From Candidatus Uhrbacteria bacterium (GTDB lineage Bacteria; Patescibacteriota; Patescibacteriia; UBA9934; GWF2-40-263): 64,000 nucleotides of DNA. Position numbers and translations under genes: made by a program. This document shows positions 38,675 to 55,963 of this stretch, in pieces. Where the stretch lies: contig CAIMOJ010000046.1 of the NCBI GenBank assembly GCA_903843045.1, forward strand, positions 95,073 through 159,072, in the 5' to 3' direction. The notes below the pieces were generated by a model, which was not told the DNA's origin, made no database searches, and worked only from the letters and a program-made list of their open reading frames with translations. Position 1 is the stretch's first letter. Each line of letters opens with the position of its first letter.

Positions 38675-38727
38675 TCAATCTGAGCGGGCATGATATTCTC
38701 TCGCCACGAGAAACTATCAGCCCAAAC

Positions 38728-49228: not shown

Positions 49229-50644
49229 ATGGCGACATCCCACGCGGACCACGAGGTCTGGCAGAAAGAGCAGAATTTCATCTCGCAAAAGCGCAAGGAG
49301 AACCGAGAGCTGTTCGCGTCGTCGGACAAGGGCGCGTTCGATCTGTATGATCGAATCGGCATCACGTCGCATCCGCCGCAGCTGCCGAAGGGGTACGTGA
49401 AATATTCGCCGCTCGACTTCATCGTCGAGGAAATCCGTCCGGACGGAACGCTCATGACCGTCGACGGCCAGCCCGCCGTGCCGGAGACGCCCGACGGCGA
49501 GGGGACGATTTACGCGGATCTCACCAAGCTTGGCATCTCGACGCTCGACGCGGTCCAGCGCATGACCGACGTGCTTGGGGTTCCCCAGGACAAGATCGGC
49601 TACGCGGGAATCAAGGACGCGGTCGCGCTTACGGCGCAGCGAATCAGCGTCCGCGGAGGGTCGCTTGAGGCCGTGAAGAATCTCGCGATCACCGGCTGCC
49701 AGTTTCGACAGGTGGTCGACGGCAAGGGCGTGATCTCGACCGGCAACCTGAAGGGGAATCGGTTCACCCTTCTCATCCGCACGGAAGGCGAGCCCGACAA
49801 GGAGGCGTTCGCCGCGGCGATCGAGCTGGTGAAGACGCGGGGCGTGATGAACTACTACGGCACGCAGCGCTTCGGCACGCCGCGGTTTCTCGCCCACCTG
49901 TTCGGCGCGCACATCATGCGCGGCGACCTCGAATCGCTCATCAAGGCGTACCTCATGCAGCCGAGCCCGTACGAGCTCCCGTTCTACGCCAACATCCGGG
50001 CCGAGGCGGCCGCGGCGTATGGCGACTTTGCAAAGATGCAGACGATCATGGGAGTGCTCCCCTACTCGTTCCGCTACGAGCTCCAGATGCTCGAGGAGCT
50101 CGTCAAGAACCCGACGGGCTTCGAGGCGGCCATGAACCGCACGCAAAAGCAGGCGGACCTCTGGGCCCGCGCCTACGCCAGCTATCTCACCAACCTCATC
50201 CTCGCCGACGCGGAAAAAAACGGAACCAAGCTCCCGGACCGCATCCCGCTCCTCATCACGCAGGAACCGGAGGCGAAGCAGTTTTACGCGTCGTGGCTCA
50301 AACAGCACGGAACGGAGAGGTACATGGAGAACCTGAGAAAGTACCGGTTCATCAACGTGGGAAAGAACCAGACCATCGAGCCCGTCATCCGCCCGACGGT
50401 CCATGATTACAAGTTCGTCCCCGAGGGAATCGTCATCTCGTTCGACCTTCCGAAGGGCGCCTACGCGACAACGATCCTGATGTACCTGTTCGACTCCGTC
50501 AGCGGAACGCCGATTCCGGAATGGATGAACACGGCCGAGGTCGACACCAAGGAACTCCTCGGCACCGGCTCGCTCCGCCACGTCCGCGAACAATTTGCCG
50601 GGGAGATCGTTTCGGCGATGGCGAACAAGACGGACGACGAGTAG
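49229..50644 (+). CDS. truD: tRNA pseudouridine(13) synthase TruD
   Basis: 471 aa with catalytic-Asp motif GIKDAVALTAQRIS and NYYGTQRFG. Extended -10 TGgTAGAAT upstream. Confidence 0.88.
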   Translation: MATSHADHEVWQKEQNFISQKRKENRELFASSDKGAFDLYDRIGITSHPPQLPKGYVKYSPLDFIVEEIRPDGTLMTVDGQPAVPETPDGEGTIYADLTKLGISTLDAVQRMTDVLGVPQDKIGYAGIKDAVALTAQRISVRGGSLEAVKNLAITGCQFRQVVDGKGVISTGNLKGNRFTLLIRTEGEPDKEAFAAAIELVKTRGVMNYYGTQRFGTPRFLAHLFGAHIMRGDLESLIKAYLMQPSPYELPFYANIRAEAAAAYGDFAKMQTIMGVLPYSFRYELQMLEELVKNPTGFEAAMNRTQKQADLWARAYASYLTNLILADAEKNGTKLPDRIPLLITQEPEAKQFYASWLKQHGTERYMENLRKYRFINVGKNQTIEPVIRPTVHDYKFVPEGIVISFDLPKGAYATTILMYLFDSVSGTPIPEWMNTAEVDTKELLGTGSLRHVREQFAGEIVSAMANKTDDE

Positions 50645-51529: not shown

Positions 51530-52066
51530 TTATCTCACGTATAAATAGAGCTTTGCCGCCCCAGGCATCTCGTCGACTTTCGTGGGATTCCAATCCGGAA
51601 TTGGCCAGACGAACGAGACGAGTCGCGCTCCCGGTTTCAGTTCCGCTTCCAGTTTTGGGCGGATTTTTTCGTAGGTTTCAGGGAGAAGAAAGAGATATAC
51701 CGCGTCGGCGTCGCGAAGGTCGTAGGCGAACGCGTTGCCAAGGACGAAGCGGGTGTTCCAGGAACGCGTGATGATTCGACGGATCTGCGCGGCGATCCAC
51801 TGGATAATCGAGAGCTCGACGCCGACGGCGATGATCTTAGACCTCACCCTGTCCCTCTCCTTTTGAAGGAGAGGGGAGCTTAGAGCGAGGACGACCCTTC
51901 CGTCCCCGCAGCCGAGCTCGACGAATTTCTCCCCGTCCTTCAAATCCAACAGCCGTCGAATGCGCTCGATGTCCCGCTTGAACGTGGGAACCCAGGGCGC
52001 GCCCGAGGCGGAGGCGTAGGCGAGGGAAAAGAGGAGAATGAGGATTGGGATCCAGAGGAGGGACAT
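51530..52066 (-). CDS. Membrane-anchored class I SAM-dependent methyltransferase
   Basis: N-terminal TM, SAM motif I VELGCGDGRVV. Contains the extra peptide SSPLLQKERDRVRS encoded by mini-element copy 4. Paralog of the 59870-60412 gene. Confidence 0.7.
   Translation of the reverse strand: MSLLWIPILILLFSLAYASASGAPWVPTFKRDIERIRRLLDLKDGEKFVELGCGDGRVVLALSSPLLQKERDRVRSKIIAVGVELSIIQWIAAQIRRIITRSWNTRFVLGNAFAYDLRDADAVYLFLLPETYEKIRPKLEAELKPGARLVSFVWPIPDWNPTKVDEMPGAAKLYLYVR
51840..51876 (-). repeat. Intragenic palindromic mini-element, type II, copy 4 (in the methyltransferase gene)
   Basis: The reverse complement reads CCCCTCTCCTTCAAAAGGAGAGGGACAGGGTGAGGTC. It is translated in a different frame from copy 3. 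Confidence 0.8.
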
Positions 52067-52146
52067 AGCGGGCGTATTTTACCACGCATTCCCGTCTCTT
52101 GCGCGAAAAACGACATTCGGGTATTATTCTCCTCGCAAAGGGAAAT

Positions 52147-52281
52147 CGGGCTGTGGCGCAGATGGTAGCGCGCTTCGCGAGGGAGTGCAGGCGCAGAGAG
52201 GAGCCAACTGCTTGGCTCCGAACCGCCGGAACGGGCATGGCGTTATGCATCAGCATAGCCATGCACGGAAGAGGCCGTGGG
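52147..52281 (+). pseudogene. Scrambled partial tRNA-Pro copy (5' half 31 nt + 87-nt unrelated insert + 15-nt 3' fragment)
   Basis: 52147-52177 CGGGCTGTGGCGCAGATGGTAGCGCGCTTCG is identical to nt 1-31 of the intact tRNA-Pro. 52267-52281 GGAAGAGGCCGTGGG matches its anticodon-stem 3' side through the T-stem 5' side. The intervening 87 nt (52178-52264) contain the local hairpins GGAGCC...GGCTCC and GCATGGC...GCCATGC. No T-loop or acceptor 3' strand is present. Confidence 0.5.
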
Positions 52282-52297
52282 GGAAAATCGAATTAGT

Positions 52298-52373
52298 CGG
52301 GCTGTGGCGCAGATGGTAGCGCGCTTCGTTCGGGACGAAGAGGCCGTGGGTTCAAATCCCGCCAGCCCGACCA
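52298..52373 (+). tRNA. tRNA-Pro (anticodon CGG)
   Basis: Acceptor CGGGCTG/CAGCCCG, D-stem GCGC/GCGC, anticodon stem CTTCG/CGAAG with loop TTCGGGA, T-arm GTGGG-TTCAAAT-CCCGC, discriminator A, CCA encoded. Confidence 0.85.
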
Positions 52374-52374
52374 C

Positions 52375-52407
52375 AAAGAGACTGTCGCAAGACAGTCTCT
52401 TTGTTTT
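52375..52407 (+). terminator. Intrinsic terminator after tRNA-Pro
   Basis: AAAGAGACTGTC-GCAA-GACAGTCTCTTT followed by GTTTT. Confidence 0.75.
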
Positions 52408-52414
52408 GCACTCC

Positions 52415-53398
52415 CTAGTAATCGATCCCTTCCCGCGCCTGCACCCCGCTGTAAAAATAATGCTTTCTTAATCTCATCTCCGTCACCAGATGCGCGTGGT
52501 CGAAGAACGCGTCCGGCGCGTTGCGGCCCGTCAGGACGACCTCGGTCTTCTCCGGTTTCTCGTCGAGGACGGACAAGACGGATTCGACGGACAACATCTT
52601 CAAATCGGTCGTCGAGTTGATCTCGTCGAGCACGACCAAGTCGTATCCCTCCGCGAACATCCTGCGAACCTCCTCGAGCCCGCGAGCCGCCTCGTCGCGA
52701 TCGATTTGCTGGATCGAGAAGTCGAACCGGTTCGTCACCGGATCGATGCGGTCGCGGCCCGTGGCGACGTATGCGGTGCCGACGCGATCGAGAATCGTCC
52801 GCTCCGAGTAGTGCGTATTCCCGCCCTTGTCGAAGAACACGATCCCGACCTTTTTTCCCGCCCCGGCAGCACGCACCGCCTCGCCGATTGCCGCGGTTGT
52901 CTTTCCCTTTCCGTTTCCCGTAAACAGTTGGATCAGTCCCAACCCCTGCCGCCCCACGATCGCCTTGTCCGCCGCGACGACGATCCCCTCGCTCTTGCGA
53001 TACGCGTCGACGACCTCCGCGATATGCCACGCCTCGATCTTTGCGCCGCGCGGATCGATCCAATCGTAGGAGACGTGCTCGTTCGACAGGACGATCTCGA
53101 CCTCGCCGACGGGAACGACGAAGTACAGGCAGAGGACGTATTCGACCTGGCTTGCCGTCTCGCTCAATTCCAACCCGTGGTAAATGCGTCGTCCCGCGAA
53201 GAACGGCTGGATCCCGGCCACGTCCAGGTCGAGCCCGGTCTCCTCGCGCAGTTCGCGCCGCAGTCCGTCGTGCGTCCCTTCCCCGGCGTCCATCCGCCCG
53301 CCCGGAAGGTCTTCCTTCCCGTTCGCGAGCCGCAGCATCAGGATCTTTCCGTGCGGATTGACGAGCAGCGCCTTGTTCGACACGTACATTTTTTCCAT
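52415..53398 (-). CDS. NUDIX hydrolase fused to cob(I)alamin adenosyltransferase (CobA/CobO/BtuR family)
   Basis: N-terminal Nudix box GGRMDAGEGTHDGLRRELREETGL. C-terminal P-loop QLFTGNGKGKTTAAIGEAVRAAG and VLDEI. Start MEKMY at 53398 (alternatives 53389, or GTG 53416). Confidence 0.8.
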   Translation of the reverse strand: MEKMYVSNKALLVNPHGKILMLRLANGKEDLPGGRMDAGEGTHDGLRRELREETGLDLDVAGIQPFFAGRRIYHGLELSETASQVEYVLCLYFVVPVGEVEIVLSNEHVSYDWIDPRGAKIEAWHIAEVVDAYRKSEGIVVAADKAIVGRQGLGLIQLFTGNGKGKTTAAIGEAVRAAGAGKKVGIVFFDKGGNTHYSERTILDRVGTAYVATGRDRIDPVTNRFDFSIQQIDRDEAARGLEEVRRMFAEGYDLVVLDEINSTTDLKMLSVESVLSVLDEKPEKTEVVLTGRNAPDAFFDHAHLVTEMRLRKHYFYSGVQAREGIDY

Positions 53399-53420
53399 AC
53401 GCCAACATGCTATCACGCCG

Positions 53421-53478: not shown

Positions 53479-54243
53479 ATGCGTGGATTCTGTCTGTTGC
53501 CAGGGACCGTCAAGGGCGAGGCGTGCACGGTGCGCGTCCATCCGCTCAATCCGAACGCCGAGTACTTCGGCCCTCCCATTCCTCCGGAAATGAACGAGCT
53601 GTTCGAACGCACGCTGGACGCGACCGTCTCCGAGCTCGGAGGACCGCGGGTTGGCGGCGGGCGTCACGTCGAGGTCCGTCTCATCGACGAGTGGCTCGAG
53701 ACGAACTCGCGCCCGGGGCTTCGCAGGCTGTACGGCGGCGAGCCGCCCGCGCCGTTCAAGTACGAGCTGGCGAGACTCAAGCACTACATGAACGGCTGGA
53801 CGCGCGAGACTGACATCAAGGTCGGCTCCAAGGCGTTCATCTGGATCAAGGAGACGGGCGACATCCCGTGGCTCCACCGCGTACCCGATCAGCTCCCGTC
53901 CGCGTTCCCCCGCTACCCGCACGCGCAGACGGTGGGCTTCTGGGAGGCACGCATCGAGGCGATCAGCAAGCCCGCGGAAGGAATTCTCGTCCGCAAGGTG
54001 CGCGCCGTGCTCACCGACCTGCGCATCCGCAACCACGAGAACAGCGCCGTCGCCGTACTGCACGGACAGGAGCCCTGGATCGACTACACGGTGACGCTCG
54101 CCGCGAACGAGACCCTCGCCGCCATGGGCGAAGCCTGGGGCGCGCTCGGCGACTGGACCGAGGCAAGGACGCGCGGAATCAAGGTTCCCCGCTGGCTCCA
54201 GGACGTGGGCGAGCAGATCTGGGACCCGGACGACCTCCTCTAA
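53479..54243 (+). CDS. Hypothetical protein A (254 aa) of the orphan cluster
   Basis: Own promoter and SD. Terminator AGCCCCGAC-TCCG-GTCGGGGCT plus a T-tract at 54243-54270. No recognisable domain. Confidence 0.55.
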   Translation: MRGFCLLPGTVKGEACTVRVHPLNPNAEYFGPPIPPEMNELFERTLDATVSELGGPRVGGGRHVEVRLIDEWLETNSRPGLRRLYGGEPPAPFKYELARLKHYMNGWTRETDIKVGSKAFIWIKETGDIPWLHRVPDQLPSAFPRYPHAQTVGFWEARIEAISKPAEGILVRKVRAVLTDLRIRNHENSAVAVLHGQEPWIDYTVTLAANETLAAMGEAWGALGDWTEARTRGIKVPRWLQDVGEQIWDPDDLL

Positions 54244-54317
54244 GCCCCGACTCCGGTCGGGGCTCTTTTCATTGACAATCGGGAAAATTCCTGTCACGAT
54301 CTCCCTCGGAGAGTCAC

Positions 54318-54737
54318 ATGGCAAACATCGTATCGGACCGACTGCTGTGCGCCATCGGCCGCGCGCCCGGGACCGATCCGCCCCCGGATACGTTTCGAGA
54401 AGGGTCGCACAGGGAGCAGTTCCGCGCCGAGTGGGATGGCGATATCCCACTGGCAGTCGCAAACGTAGCCCTCGCGCTCGAGATCGCCCGCCGCAGGATT
54501 TTCACGCGCGTCATCCTCGACGTCCTGAGGGCGTCCTCGACCTCGCAGATTCCCCCGATGGCGAAACGACAGCACTTGGAAAAGCGCAAGCTCGTCCGCG
54601 GAGAGATCATCGACGGGCTTGGCCACTGGGACGTCGCTCCCGCCGGCCACGAGCTCCTTCGTTCCTCCGCAATCGTCGCGACGATCCCCGAGGAGACGAT
54701 CCGCGCCATCCTTGCTCGCCACGGAATGGCAGCCTGA
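54318..54737 (+). CDS. Hypothetical protein B (139 aa) of the orphan cluster
   Basis: Preceded by TTTCATTGACA (-35 TTGACA at 54273-54278). Terminator GACGACCG-AACC-CCGGTCGT plus T6 at 54736-54761. Confidence 0.5.
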   Translation: MANIVSDRLLCAIGRAPGTDPPPDTFREGSHREQFRAEWDGDIPLAVANVALALEIARRRIFTRVILDVLRASSTSQIPPMAKRQHLEKRKLVRGEIIDGLGHWDVAPAGHELLRSSAIVATIPEETIRAILARHGMAA

Positions 54738-54824
54738 CGACCGAACCCCGGTCGTTTTTTCATTGACAGGATTGAATTTCCATGCCAGCATATTCGCGCA
54801 ACGCCATGACAAGGAGATCGAGCC

Positions 54825-55430
54825 ATGGGCAGTCCACTCAGCCTCACGGAATTCAAGCGGATCAAGAGACAGCACGGGCAAAAGGTCGCGGAAGCGGCAA
54901 ACCGGGGGGAGTACGCGCATCTTGTGCGACAGATTCGGACCCCCCTCACGGTGTCCGGCCCCGATTTTGAGGAGGTCGAGCGTCCGCCTCGCCAGGAGAG
55001 ACCGGAACGTCCATCCGTCGAAAGGACGGCGCGTCCGTTCATGGTTCGACCGAACCCCTTCCCGACCGAAGCGGTTCCTGAAGTTCCCAAGAAGGAGACG
55101 ATCGTCGAGGTACCAAAGCCGAGCCGACCGATCCTGAACCCCATCCAGGCGCGGTTCGCCGCCATCGCCTGGAACGTCCAGGGGCAGCTGAGGCGCCCGC
55201 CGACCAAGGCCGAGCTCGAGGTCATCCGGGAGAGGATCTTCTTCGGAGGGAACTTCTTCGGAGCGATGAGCGCGCTCGAGCGTCTCGGCGCCGTCGCCCG
55301 CGACGACGACGGCGACAGCATCCGCTACCGCGTCCACGAGCCGCGAACGGCGGCCCTGCAGCCAAGCGACTACAAGATCGTCCGCGCGGCCGTGACGGGC
55401 GTCACGAACGAAAGCGACGAGCCCGCTTGA
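54825..55430 (+). CDS. Hypothetical protein C (201 aa, Pro/Glu/Arg-rich middle) of the orphan cluster
   Basis: Preceded by TTTTCATTGACA (54764-54769) and SD AAGGAGA. Confidence 0.5.
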   Translation: MGSPLSLTEFKRIKRQHGQKVAEAANRGEYAHLVRQIRTPLTVSGPDFEEVERPPRQERPERPSVERTARPFMVRPNPFPTEAVPEVPKKETIVEVPKPSRPILNPIQARFAAIAWNVQGQLRRPPTKAELEVIRERIFFGGNFFGAMSALERLGAVARDDDGDSIRYRVHEPRTAALQPSDYKIVRAAVTGVTNESDEPA

Positions 55431-55819
55431 CTCGAACGGCGTTTCCGAAGACAATTGTCCTGCCAGCCATCCGCTCCCGCCACACCCCGAGGTTCTCCGC
55501 CATGCCCCTGCCCCCGCAAACGTTCGCCCCCACGCCCGAGCCGCTCACCAAGCTCACCTATCTGCTCCTGTGCCGCCTGTGCGACGACCACGACGCCGTC
55601 GTCGTCCCGCGCGACCTGTTGCTCAGCCATATCGCCCGGTGGTCGCTCATCGACAACCCCGCCGGCACGCTCGATCACCTGCGACGCAACAAGGTCGTCG
55701 TTGAGCTGAACGACGGCCGCGTCCGCGTCCGCCGCCCGAAGCGCGATCTCAAGAGCCTTCCCGGCTCGCTTCCGCACAACTGGCTCCTGCTCCTCCGTGG
55801 AACGACGGCCACCCTCTGA
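55427..55819 (+). CDS. Hypothetical protein D (up to 130 aa) of the orphan cluster
   Basis: Overlaps gene C by 4 nt. Alternative internal start MPLPPQTF at 55499. Terminator GACGACC-AATC-GGTCGTC plus T8 at 55818-55846. Confidence 0.4.
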   Translation: MTRTAFPKTIVLPAIRSRHTPRFSAMPLPPQTFAPTPEPLTKLTYLLLCRLCDDHDAVVVPRDLLLSHIARWSLIDNPAGTLDHLRRNKVVVELNDGRVRVRRPKRDLKSLPGSLPHNWLLLLRGTTATL

Positions 55820-55963
55820 CGACCAATCGGTCGTCCTTTTTTTTCGGCCTGCGGGCTTCTGCGAATAACGTATGAGCTGCCAATCACACAAATTGCTACG
55901 GATTGCCACGAATACAAAAGGCCGGGGGAATACCCTCGGCCTTTCTTTTCGTCAGCGGTTGGA

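What the first reader, a model, noticed from the sequence alone, without database searches (positions are those of the whole stretch)
52147..52373. Scrambled partial duplicate of tRNA-Pro immediately upstream of the intact tRNA-Pro(CGG)
The first 31 nt of tRNA-Pro (acceptor 5' strand through the anticodon-stem 5' strand) are repeated exactly 151 nt upstream. A 15-nt piece of the 3' half (GGAAGAGGCCGTGGG) reappears 16 nt before the intact gene. The 87 nt in between are unrelated and hairpin-rich. This looks like a recombination scar, for example from integration or excision of a mobile element that used the tRNA-Pro anticodon-stem region as its att core. The locus is flanked by lineage-specific genes (an orphan cluster on one side, a methyltransferase with a mini-element on the other).
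Basis: seen in the sequence. Interest (0 to 1): 0.5.

Follow-up and report, generated by a model that had tools for sequence, protein, structure and literature searches.

The report
Conserved pseudo-tRNA leader before tRNA-Pro
A 151-base insertion made of a broken tRNA-Pro copy plus two hairpins sits between the promoter and the working tRNA-Pro gene in a small clade of Uhrbacteria (CPR bacteria), and about 100 of its bases are conserved as tightly as the tRNA itself, so it is probably a functional leader rather than a dead recombination scar.

Summary
The repeat is real. The first 31 nt of tRNA-Pro(CGG) (32 nt with the preceding T) recur exactly 151 nt upstream. A 14-nt piece of the 3' half, not 15, recurs 16 nt before the gene.

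A related Uhrbacteria genome (L012) has the same neighbours, promoter and terminator but no insertion, so the 151 bp were added. Four sequence-distinct lineages carry the insertion at the same place. No island or integrase lies between fragment and gene, and both flanking genes are widely conserved.

The upstream copy is not a tRNA. It lacks the 3' strands of the T and acceptor stems, and ARAGORN with intron search does not call it.

Conservation inside the insertion is uneven. Among the four lineages, 48% of fourfold-degenerate sites in the neighbouring gene vary. Only 3% of the 5' copy and 3.5% of the 57-nt core vary, while 52% of the tail does. The second hairpin varies at 27% of its positions and keeps pairing through two compensatory changes.

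My best reading is an old recombination or duplication product that is now a transcribed, structured 5' leader of pre-tRNA-Pro. Its function is unknown. The integration-scar idea is partly supported for origin only. Interest is moderate.

The parts
52099..52127 (+). Putative sigma-70-type promoter of the tRNA-Pro transcript: -35 TTGCGC (52099-52104), 17-nt spacer, -10 TATTAT (52122-52127). It lies upstream of the partial copy.
   Evidence: Read from the sequence. The block is conserved in all five aligned loci, including empty-site L012 (A1). A similar -10 followed by TCTC..CGC precedes tRNA-Glu at about 38690-38715. The consensus scanner did not call it (8 of 12 matches, threshold 9). Assignment is inferred.
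52146..52177 (+). Upstream direct-repeat copy: T plus the first 31 nt of tRNA-Pro (5' strand of the acceptor stem, D arm, 5' strand of the anticodon stem).
   Evidence: Exact match (D2). Only 1 of 31 columns varies among the four lineages, against 48% of neutral sites.
52178..52184 (+). Diverged anticodon-loop remnant CGAGGGA (the tRNA has TTCGGGA). The universal U33 is lost.
   Evidence: D2. Invariant in the four lineages.
52185..52231 (+). Invariant core of the insert: closing stem GGCG/CGCC (52190-52193 with 52224-52227) around hairpin 1, GGAGCCAA-CTGC-TTGGCTCC (52200-52219).
   Evidence: Folding. With the loop remnant, only 2 of 57 columns vary (p=2e-9 against fourfold sites). It is unique in the window and in the 16 other loci searched.
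52232..52267 (+). Hairpin 2 (main stem 52235-52264). Its sequence varies but its pairing is kept.
   Evidence: Hairpin alone has a z-score of -4.6. L013 has C-G to U-A and A-U to G-C compensatory changes, and a G.A to C-G gain is shared with L017. There is one disruption in L017.
52268..52281 (+). 14-nt exact copy of tRNA positions 40-53 (3' strand of the anticodon stem, variable loop, 5' strand of the T stem). The first 10 nt are conserved and the T-stem part is not.
   Evidence: for the match. Alignments A1 and A2. One search finds the linker at 0 of 12 variable columns.
52282..52297 (+). T-loop-like remnant and junction tail (GGAAAATCGAATTAGT). It evolves neutrally and contains no 3' strand of the T stem or acceptor stem.
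   Evidence: D5. In one search, 11 of 21 columns vary (52%), matching the neutral rate.
52298..52373 (+). Intact tRNA-Pro(CGG) with encoded CCA.
   Evidence: ARAGORN and Rfam RF00005 at 67.3 bits. The sequence is identical in L002, L009-L014, L017 and L021.
52373..52408 (+). Intrinsic terminator hairpin (14-bp perfect stem, loop GCAA, T run), here called type A.
   Evidence: I11. It is conserved in L012 and L013, and in L017 with a compensatory change at its base. L021 has a different terminator, type B.

Best explanation
A single old event added 151 bp at the 5' end of the tRNA-Pro(CGG) gene. It happened in the ancestor of a small clade of Candidatus Uhrbacteria (CPR/Patescibacteria). The event was a duplication or a homology-anchored recombination within the tRNA gene.

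The added piece is a truncated pseudo-tRNA-Pro. It keeps positions 1-31, a decayed anticodon loop, the 3' strand of the anticodon stem and the variable loop. It then fades out in the T loop. An 81-nt two-hairpin module sits in its anticodon loop.

The only conserved promoter lies upstream of this piece and the only terminator lies after the intact tRNA. So the piece must be transcribed as a leader of about 160 nt on pre-tRNA-Pro and cut off by RNase P (inferred).

About 100 of its 151 nt have since been held almost invariant, and hairpin 2 has kept its pairing, while the tail drifted at the neutral rate (shown). I therefore think the scar has been taken over as a structured leader RNA. It most likely acts in cis on the folding, processing or stability of pre-tRNA-Pro(CGG). 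Alternatively it is released as a small RNA that carries a tRNA-Pro 5' half. The molecular function itself is not shown.
For: Insertion rather than ancestral state:
- L012 has the same methyltransferase, promoter, tRNA, terminator and NUDIX-CobO order without the 151 bp.

Age and vertical inheritance:
- Four distinct versions exist: the window (=L001), L021, L013 (=L014) and L017.
- In a neighbour-joining tree of the adjacent methyltransferase they span a clade to which L012 is an outgroup.
- Fourfold-site divergence from the window is 5-18% (L021), 17-24% (L013) and 37% (L017).

Constraint, as variable columns:
- Fourfold sites of the methyltransferase: 37 of 77.
- 5' copy: 1 of 31 (p=2e-6).
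- Loop remnant plus core: 2 of 57 (p=2e-9).
- Linker: 0 of 12.
- Hairpin 2: 8 of 30.
- Tail: 11 of 21.
A neutral tail lying between a frozen core and the tRNA argues against recent transfer of the whole block.

Structure:
- The insert folds into two hairpins with z=-3.8.
- Hairpin 2 has two compensatory pairs plus one gained pair.

Not protein-coding:
- All codon positions of the core are invariant.
- Reading frames through the leader differ in their stops, and L021 has a frameshift.

Transcription:
- The conserved -35/-10 block lies upstream of the partial copy in both filled and empty loci.
- The tail just before the intact tRNA is variable.
Against: - There are only four sequences from one narrow clade.
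- The covariation is thin. Both double changes are in L013, and 40 of 500 column shuffles reach the same score.
- Hairpin 1 and its closing stem never vary, so they say nothing about RNA structure.
- The closest relative, L021, has two uncompensated changes in the core, including an A.C mismatch in hairpin 1, despite low neutral divergence.
- The loci are mosaics. L013 is 96% identical in CobO but 81% in the methyltransferase. L021 is 99% and 92%, with a swapped terminator. Recombination could therefore distort the neutral yardstick.
- The 5' copy and linker could be kept identical by gene conversion from the adjacent tRNA.
- There are no transcript data and no known RNA family.
- The promoter is below the scanner's threshold.
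- The whole leader does not fold better than shuffles (z=-1.1).
Confidence: 0.5

Rival explanations
1. It is a neutral recombination scar. Three origins are possible: (a) the attL/attR remnant of an integrative element that used the anticodon region of tRNA-Pro and was later almost entirely deleted; (b) homology-facilitated illegitimate recombination with incoming tRNA-Pro DNA; or (c) a decayed tandem duplicate. On this view the low divergence of the core comes from gene conversion and recombinational spread among closely related lineages, not from function.
For: - A 32-bp direct repeat flanks the insertion, and an empty site exists.
- The 5'-fragment-upstream configuration matches a minority island class.
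- L002 has an independent 107-bp insertion with a 21-nt 3' tRNA repeat at the same gene.
- Small toxin-antitoxin genes are inserted at this locus in relatives.
- Identity around the tRNA is clearly mosaic.
- L021 shows uncompensated core changes.
- Homology-facilitated illegitimate recombination is a documented route for short insertions (PMC3240628, listed).
Against: - A neutral scar should diverge evenly. Here the tail (52% variable) and hairpin 2 (27%) sit between a frozen core (3.5%) and the tRNA.
- The core has no second copy that could act as a donor for gene conversion.
- There is no integrase within 10 kb on either side.
- The tRNA half and the core have no match in viral contigs, and the insert has none in phage or plasmid records.
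- CPR genomes are small and deletion-prone (established knowledge), yet the 151 bp persisted across lineages that are 37% diverged at neutral sites.
Confidence: 0.3
2. The conserved core works at the DNA level. It could be an operator for a regulator of the tRNA-Pro or methyltransferase promoter, or an attachment site still used by a mobile element that is absent from these assemblies. Hairpins 1 and 2 would then be dyad-symmetric binding sites.
For: - Hairpin 1 is a perfect 8-bp inverted repeat with a 4-bp spacer, and hairpin 2 is an imperfect palindrome.
- Complete invariance of both stems and loops in the core is what a protein-contact surface gives.
- The site lies just downstream of a promoter.
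Against: - The invariant stretch is about 100 nt, far longer than a typical operator.
- The hairpin-2 changes preserve complementarity rather than sequence. That pattern is expected for RNA or single-stranded DNA, not for a double-stranded recognition site.
- No regulator or recombinase gene is linked to the locus.
Confidence: 0.1
3. The leader encodes a small peptide. One candidate is the 44-codon frame that starts at the ATG in the D-loop copy. Another is a leader peptide behind the Shine-Dalgarno-like GAGAGGAG that reads CCG-CCG, the codons decoded by tRNA-Pro(CGG). That peptide could couple translation to tRNA-Pro supply.
For: - Frames remain open through most of the leader in several lineages.
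- The invariant core contains GAGAGGAG followed by CTG/TTG and the string GAA-CCG-CCG-GAA.
Against: - The fourfold positions of every frame are invariant in the core, so the constraint is on nucleotides, not amino acids.
- Where the sequence does vary, the changes are mostly nonsynonymous.
- Stop positions differ between lineages, L021 is frameshifted, and L021 loses the TTG start.
- There is no terminator/antiterminator pair in the leader.
Confidence: 0.03
4. The upstream copy is a functional intron-containing, split or permuted tRNA gene.
For: - The insert sits exactly in the anticodon loop, after position 38.
- Patescibacteria often carry group I introns in tRNA anticodon loops (PMC13011429).
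Against: - The copy has no 3' strand for the T stem or the acceptor stem.
- ARAGORN with introns up to 300 nt and lowered thresholds calls only the intact gene.
- There is no Rfam group I or other hit at E<=10.
- Bacterial tRNA group I introns are 184-894 nt, whereas this insert is 81 nt.
- U33 is lost.
Confidence: 0.02

Closest known systems
tDNA-fragment signature of integrated genomic islands (Islander; class with a 5' fragment and an anticodon-centred crossover)
   Same: An intact tRNA gene has a cognate end fragment on the correct side and in the same orientation. The repeat ends in the anticodon stem. An empty site exists in a relative.
   Different: Only 120 bp lie between fragment and gene, with no integrase and no cargo. 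The interval contains further collinear tRNA-like pieces. It is fixed and conserved across lineages rather than variable.
Degenerate, integrase-less island remnants flanked by att sites (CIME-like elements; from my own knowledge, not tested against a reference)
   Same: It is a short interval bounded by direct repeats of a tRNA-gene end, with the recombination module gone.
   Different: CIMEs are kilobase-scale and are not known to be under purifying selection. Here the interior is more conserved than synonymous sites of the neighbouring gene.
Insertions made by homology-facilitated illegitimate recombination (PMC3240628)
   Same: A short foreign segment is joined next to a homologous anchor (the tRNA), producing a partial duplication. 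Sister lineage L002 combines two terminator alleles in just this way.
   Different: The mechanism cannot be demonstrated from sequence, and it does not explain the later conservation.
Regulatory RNAs cut out of tRNA precursor spacers, e.g. the E. coli 3'ETS-leuZ sponge (own knowledge; papers listed were not read)
   Same: The RNA would be made as part of a tRNA precursor and released by tRNA-processing nucleases. No separate promoter is needed.
   Different: This one is a 5' leader, is partly derived from a tRNA pseudogene, occurs in CPR bacteria, and has no known target or chaperone. Neither release nor stability has been shown.
Group I introns in the anticodon loops of Patescibacteria tRNA genes (PMC13011429)
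   Same: Same phylum, and the foreign sequence is also inserted in a tRNA anticodon loop.
   Different: The insert is 81 nt against at least 184 nt. It has no group I core. The host copy is truncated and cannot form a tRNA. An intact intron-less gene follows it.

Membership tests
Integrated genomic island / prophage at a tRNA gene | An intact tDNA plus a cognate end fragment, in the same orientation, with a 5' fragment upstream | tested here: met
   The 31/32-nt exact 5' fragment at 52146-52177 lies upstream of the gene at 52298-52373 on the same strand. The configuration rule is taken from PMC4383910.
Integrated genomic island / prophage at a tRNA gene | A tyrosine integrase gene within or overlapping the interval | tested here: not met
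   The interval is 120 bp. No integrase family appears among the called genes within 10 kb on either side or among the ten neighbouring ORFs scanned against Pfam.
Integrated genomic island / prophage at a tRNA gene | An interval of kilobase size with cargo that is present or absent among relatives | tested here: not met
   Relatives either lack the 151 bp (L012) or carry the same 149-151 bp with nothing else (L013, L017, L021).
Integrated genomic island / prophage at a tRNA gene | A matching attP in a phage or plasmid | tested here: not met
   The tRNA 5' half and the core have no exact match in viral contigs. The 120-nt insert has no blastn match in phage or plasmid records. The rest of this genome could not be searched.
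Intron-containing tRNA (group I intron in the anticodon loop) | A complete cloverleaf once the insert is removed | tested here: not met
   The 3' strands of the T and acceptor stems are absent (alignment). ARAGORN run with -i0,300 at thresholds down to ps80 calls only the intact gene.
Intron-containing tRNA (group I intron in the anticodon loop) | A group I catalytic core, with length of at least about 184 nt | tested here: not met
   The insert is 81 nt. There is no Rfam hit other than tRNA at E<=10. The length range comes from PMC13011429.
MITE / REP-like repeated palindromic element | Multiple copies per genome | tested here: inconclusive
   There is a single copy in the 64-kb window and none elsewhere in the 16 other loci searched. 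The rest of the genome was not available.
MITE / REP-like repeated palindromic element | Terminal inverted repeats and a target-site duplication | tested here: inconclusive
   The ends read GTGCA...TGCAC (5 bp perfect, 8 of 9 with one indel). There is no clear target-site duplication. The L013 change breaks end-to-end pairing but keeps hairpin 2.
Functional structured non-coding RNA | Conservation well above the neutral rate | tested here: met
   The core varies at 2 of 57 columns and the 5' copy at 1 of 31, against 37 of 77 fourfold sites (p=2e-9 and 2e-6). The tail, at 11 of 21, is neutral.
Functional structured non-coding RNA | Statistically supported covariation in helices | tested here: inconclusive
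   Two pairs have changes on both sides, both in L013. In the control, 40 of 500 shuffles reach this level. Slid registers give none.
Functional structured non-coding RNA | Membership of a described RNA family | tested here: not met
   There is no Rfam family at the gathering threshold or at E<=10 apart from the tRNA itself.
tRNA-precursor-derived small RNA (spacer-derived, 3'ETS-leuZ-like) | Co-transcription with the tRNA and release by RNase P or RNase E | not testable with these tools
   This is only inferred, from the conserved promoter upstream of the partial copy and the single terminator after the tRNA.

The most novel reading that the evidence does not exclude
The leader is an undescribed, clade-specific non-coding RNA built from a tRNA-Pro pseudogene. 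It would be a structured RNA of about 160 nt, carrying a tRNA-Pro 5' half and an invariant 57-nt core, made on the same transcript as tRNA-Pro(CGG). It would tune the supply or maturation of that tRNA, or act in trans after RNase P releases it. The Shine-Dalgarno-like GAGAGGAG and the CCG-CCG string in the invariant core would be part of how it senses or acts.
Probability: 0.3. Interest if true: 0.6.

Novelty: new variant of a known kind. Interest (0 to 1): 0.4.

Why it matters
tRNA-gene fragments are normally read as dead footprints of mobile elements. In this case the footprint appears to have been kept and put to use, in bacteria whose very small genomes usually shed useless DNA.

If the leader is a working RNA, it would be an example of a new regulatory or processing element arising from a tRNA pseudogene. 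It would also be an unusual case of a bacterial tRNA gene carrying a long, conserved, structured 5' leader.

The locus also documents that tRNA-Pro(CGG) is a recombination hotspot in Uhrbacteria. Relatives show a 5' scar, a 3' scar, a gene inversion, toxin-antitoxin insertions and mosaic flanks.

The clade is narrow and the function is unproven, so the wider impact is moderate.

Tried and rejected
- **Intron-containing tRNA.** ARAGORN with intron search and relaxed thresholds gave nothing on the upstream copy. At ps70 it gave only a junk call on the opposite strand.
- **Known RNA family.** Rfam at the gathering threshold and at E<=10 found only the tRNA.
- **Group I intron remnant.** The insert is too short and has no catalytic core.
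- **Repeated mini-element.** I tried pattern search with 3 mismatches, blastn-short, and a covariance model of core plus hairpin 2. All found only the four orthologous copies.
- **Phage or plasmid origin.** No hits.
- **Small ORFs.** Three forward frames were compared in four lineages and none is conserved as a protein.
- **Pairing of the core with mature tRNA-Pro.** RNAduplex gave a long GC-driven duplex that only 1.7% of shuffles matched. I regard this as uninformative because both partners are strongly self-folded.
- **Inverted repeat.** The repeat between 52182-52201 and the CobO 3' end at 52428-52447 is 80% over 20 nt. That is no better than many chance pairs in the same list.
- **More variants of the leader.** L015, L016, L018, L019, L020, L022 and L003-L005 turned out to lack an adjacent tRNA-Pro or to end before it.
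- **Syntax errors.** Two literature searches and one paper look-up failed on term syntax.

Full report
**1. The observation**

ARAGORN and Rfam agree on one intact tRNA-Pro(CGG) at 52298-52373. It scores 67.3 bits and has an encoded CCA. Its first 31 nt recur exactly at 52147-52177, 151 nt upstream. They occur nowhere else in the window. With the preceding T the direct repeat is 32 nt (D2).

The exact shared string is 14 nt, GAAGAGGCCGTGGG, at 52268-52281. The 15-mer quoted begins with a G where the tRNA has C.

The similarity is also wider than described. The 7 nt after the 31-mer (CGAGGGA) are a decayed anticodon loop; the tRNA has TTCGGGA. The 3' piece runs on into a T-loop-like GGAAAATC, matching 19 of 22 positions (D2 and D5).

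The upstream unit is therefore a collinear but broken tRNA-Pro copy. It has positions 1-38, then about 81 unrelated nt (52185-52265), then positions 39 to about 61. The 3' strands of the T and acceptor stems are missing. The 81-nt insert folds into two stable hairpins (z=-3.8; 0 of 200 shuffles fold as well).

**2. Source organism and neighbours**

The adjacent 178-aa gene (51530-52066, minus strand) is a class I SAM-dependent methyltransferase. It has 944 homologues, and those that carry a name are labelled Candidatus Uhrbacteria or Patescibacteria. On the other side lies a NUDIX-CobO (corrinoid adenosyltransferase) fusion (52415-53416, minus strand). It has 621 homologues at E<=1e-40, many labelled Uhrbacteria.

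So the window comes from a CPR bacterium, and the immediate flanks are conserved genes, not lineage-specific ones. No integrase or transposase family appears among the called genes within 10 kb on either side.

**3. Relatives: empty and filled sites**

I fetched loci through homologues of the two flanking proteins and through one exact-pattern scan each of the genome and metagenome collections.

L012 (Ca. Uhrbacteria nzgw368) has the same methyltransferase, promoter, tRNA-Pro, terminator and NUDIX-CobO order. Its promoter block runs straight into the tRNA. This is the empty site.

Four sequence-distinct filled sites carry the same 149-151-bp unit at the same place:
- the window, which is identical to ENA contig L001;
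- L021;
- L013, which is identical to L014 (Ca. Uhrbacteria ELA555 and a JGI contig);
- L017 (GCA_021733565.1).

In a neighbour-joining tree of the methyltransferase, the filled loci span a clade to which L012 is an outgroup. This fits one gain followed by vertical descent.

Other relatives show that the locus is recombination-prone:
- L002 has toxin-antitoxin genes between the methyltransferase and the tRNA. Downstream of the intact tRNA it has a second terminator allele, a GC-rich palindrome, a 21-nt 3' tRNA fragment and then the ancestral terminator.
- L006, L009 and L011 have the tRNA in the opposite orientation relative to the two genes.
- Several relatives have lost the adjacency altogether.
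- Identity is mosaic. L013 is 96% identical to the window in CobO but 81% in the methyltransferase. L021 is 99% and 92%, and carries the other terminator allele.

**4. Not a tRNA, intron or known RNA**

ARAGORN with intron search (0-300 nt) and thresholds lowered to ps80 calls only the intact gene. Rfam finds nothing but the tRNA at E<=10.

Group I introns are common in Patescibacteria tRNA anticodon loops, but they are 184-894 nt long (PMC13011429). This insert is 81 nt, and its host copy cannot form a cloverleaf.

**5. Not a visible mobile element**

The core is unique in the window. A covariance model of core plus hairpin 2 finds only the four orthologous copies in about 135 kb of window and relatives. 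The tRNA half and the core have no match in viral contigs, and the insert has none in phage or plasmid records.

The configuration of a 5' fragment upstream, with the repeat ending in the anticodon stem, is a legitimate but rare island signature: 159 of 3919 islands. The same definition requires an integrase and kilobases of cargo (PMC4383910). Here the interval is 120 bp.

**6. The unexpected result: uneven conservation**

I compared the four filled lineages column by column.

| Segment | Variable columns | Share | p against fourfold sites |
|---|---|---|---|
| Fourfold sites of the neighbouring methyltransferase | 37 of 77 | 48% | reference |
| 5' copy | 1 of 31 | 3% | 2e-6 |
| Loop remnant plus core | 2 of 57 | 3.5% | 2e-9 |
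| Linker (3' anticodon stem and variable loop) | 0 of 12 | 0% | 9e-4 |
| Hairpin 2 | 8 of 30 | 27% | 0.035 |
| T-stem-like piece plus tail | 11 of 21 | 52% | 0.72 |

Pairwise fourfold divergence from the window reaches 37% for L017, yet its 5' copy plus loop remnant plus core differ at 1 of 88 positions. The tail lies between the frozen core and the tRNA and evolves neutrally. That makes a recent lateral transfer of the whole block unlikely.

In hairpin 2, L013 differs from the window at seven positions. Six of them are pairing partners: C-G to U-A, A-U to G-C, and a G.A mismatch turned into C-G. L017 has one disruptive change.

The formal covariation test is weak with four sequences (40 of 500 shuffles). 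I treat hairpin 2 as suggestive only.

The constraint is on nucleotides, not on a protein. Every codon position of the core is invariant in all frames. The open frames differ in their stops, and L021 is frameshifted.

**7. Transcription (inferred)**

A block reading TTGCGC-17 nt-TATTAT (52099-52127), followed by TCTCCTCGCAA, is conserved in filled and empty loci alike. It resembles the region upstream of the window's tRNA-Glu. The consensus scanner did not pass it, as it matches 8 of 12 positions.

The sequence just before the intact tRNA is variable and has no comparable block. The only terminator follows the intact tRNA (I11). If the tRNA is expressed, the pseudo-tRNA unit should therefore be its 5' leader, removed by RNase P. 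In the folded 271-nt precursor the intact tRNA still forms its cloverleaf.

**8. Interpretation**

Origin. A recombination or duplication event within the tRNA gene is well supported. Whether it was integrase-mediated, homology-facilitated illegitimate recombination (PMC3240628) or a tandem duplication with a later insertion cannot be decided from sequence.

Present state. The best-supported reading is that the scar has been taken over as a structured leader RNA. About 100 nt are held nearly invariant and one helix is maintained. I put this at about 0.5.

The main rival is a neutral scar whose conservation is an artefact of gene conversion and recombination among close relatives. I put it at about 0.3. 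It is helped by the mosaic flanks and by two uncompensated core changes in L021. It is hurt by the neutral tail and by the lack of any donor copy for the core.

A DNA-level protein-binding or attachment site is at about 0.1. A small peptide and a functional split or intron-containing tRNA are both unlikely.

**9. Comparison and novelty**

The locus works like the tDNA-fragment footprints of integrative elements in its origin. It may work like spacer-derived RNAs of tRNA operons in its present role. It is not a member of any tested family. It fails the integrase, cargo and attP criteria for islands, the cloverleaf and core criteria for intron-bearing tRNAs, and it has no Rfam family.

I rate it a new variant of a known kind, of moderate interest. 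The clade is narrow, the sample is four sequences, and no expression data exist.

Noticed in passing
window 49858-49952 (- strand): ARAGORN calls a 95-nt 'tRNA-Ile(GAT)' with the anticodon at position 38. It lies inside the TruD pseudouridine synthase gene (49229-50644, + strand). Rfam gives no tRNA there, so it is probably a false positive. The same call appears in L001.
   Followed up: partly
L002 4150-4400 (- strand): A sister lineage carries a different scar at the same tRNA-Pro gene. The order is intact tRNA, type-B terminator, a GC-rich perfect palindrome (cccgccgtcgggcggg/cccgcccgacggcggg), a 21-nt 3' tRNA fragment, then the ancestral type-A terminator. This amounts to a 107-bp insertion with a 21-nt direct repeat.
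   Followed up: partly
L002 4508-4996; L006 5558-5981; L007 1174-1597: Small toxin-antitoxin-like genes (HigB-like, HicA, DUF7387) sit next to the methyltransferase in relatives. In L002 they lie between the methyltransferase and tRNA-Pro, so this neighbourhood is an insertion hotspot.
   Followed up: no
L006, L009, L011 versus window 52066-52415: The tRNA-Pro gene sits next to the methyltransferase across Uhrbacteria, and CobO lies on its other side in most of these loci. Its orientation is flipped in L006, L009 and L011 relative to the window, L012, L013 and L017. This points to an inversion of the tRNA cassette alone.
   Followed up: no
window 51530-53416 versus L013 and L021: Identity on the two sides of the tRNA is mosaic. 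L013 is 96% identical in CobO but 81% in the methyltransferase. L021 is 99% in the methyltransferase but 92% in CobO and has a different terminator allele. Homologous-recombination breakpoints seem to fall at or near the tRNA.
   Followed up: partly
L009 4350-4840: Several copies of short palindromic repeats (e.g. TTCCTAGCCACTTTAGTGGCGTTCAGAA and TTCCTAGGGACTTTAGTCCC) surround tRNA-Pro and reach into the methyltransferase gene. They look like a REP/MITE-type element. The record is labelled Gammaproteobacteria, but its genes are Uhrbacteria-like.
   Followed up: no
window 38680-38727 and 52099-52140: The two tRNA genes in the window (Glu and Pro) share a promoter-like layout: TTGnnn, 17 nt, a TAT-rich -10, then TCTC(C)TCGC. 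This may be the local tRNA promoter and discriminator consensus for this CPR lineage.
   Followed up: no
window 52195-52231: The invariant core contains a Shine-Dalgarno-like GAGAGGAG and, 20 nt later, GAA-CCG-CCG-GAA. CCG is the codon read by tRNA-Pro(CGG). No conserved ORF links the two, so this may be coincidence.
   Followed up: partly
window 52415-53416 (- strand); L006 2807-3382; L017 396-785: NUDIX and CobO are fused in this clade. They occur as CobO alone in L006 and L010, and L017 has a stand-alone NUDIX gene beside the tRNA. This is domain fission or fusion within Uhrbacteria.
   Followed up: no
window 53479-55830: Four ORFs without a Pfam family lie between CobO and the class II ribonucleotide reductase (called in L001 at 105, 201, 139 and 254 aa). 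Their content differs in L002 and L006, so this is a variable segment one gene away from the tRNA.
   Followed up: no
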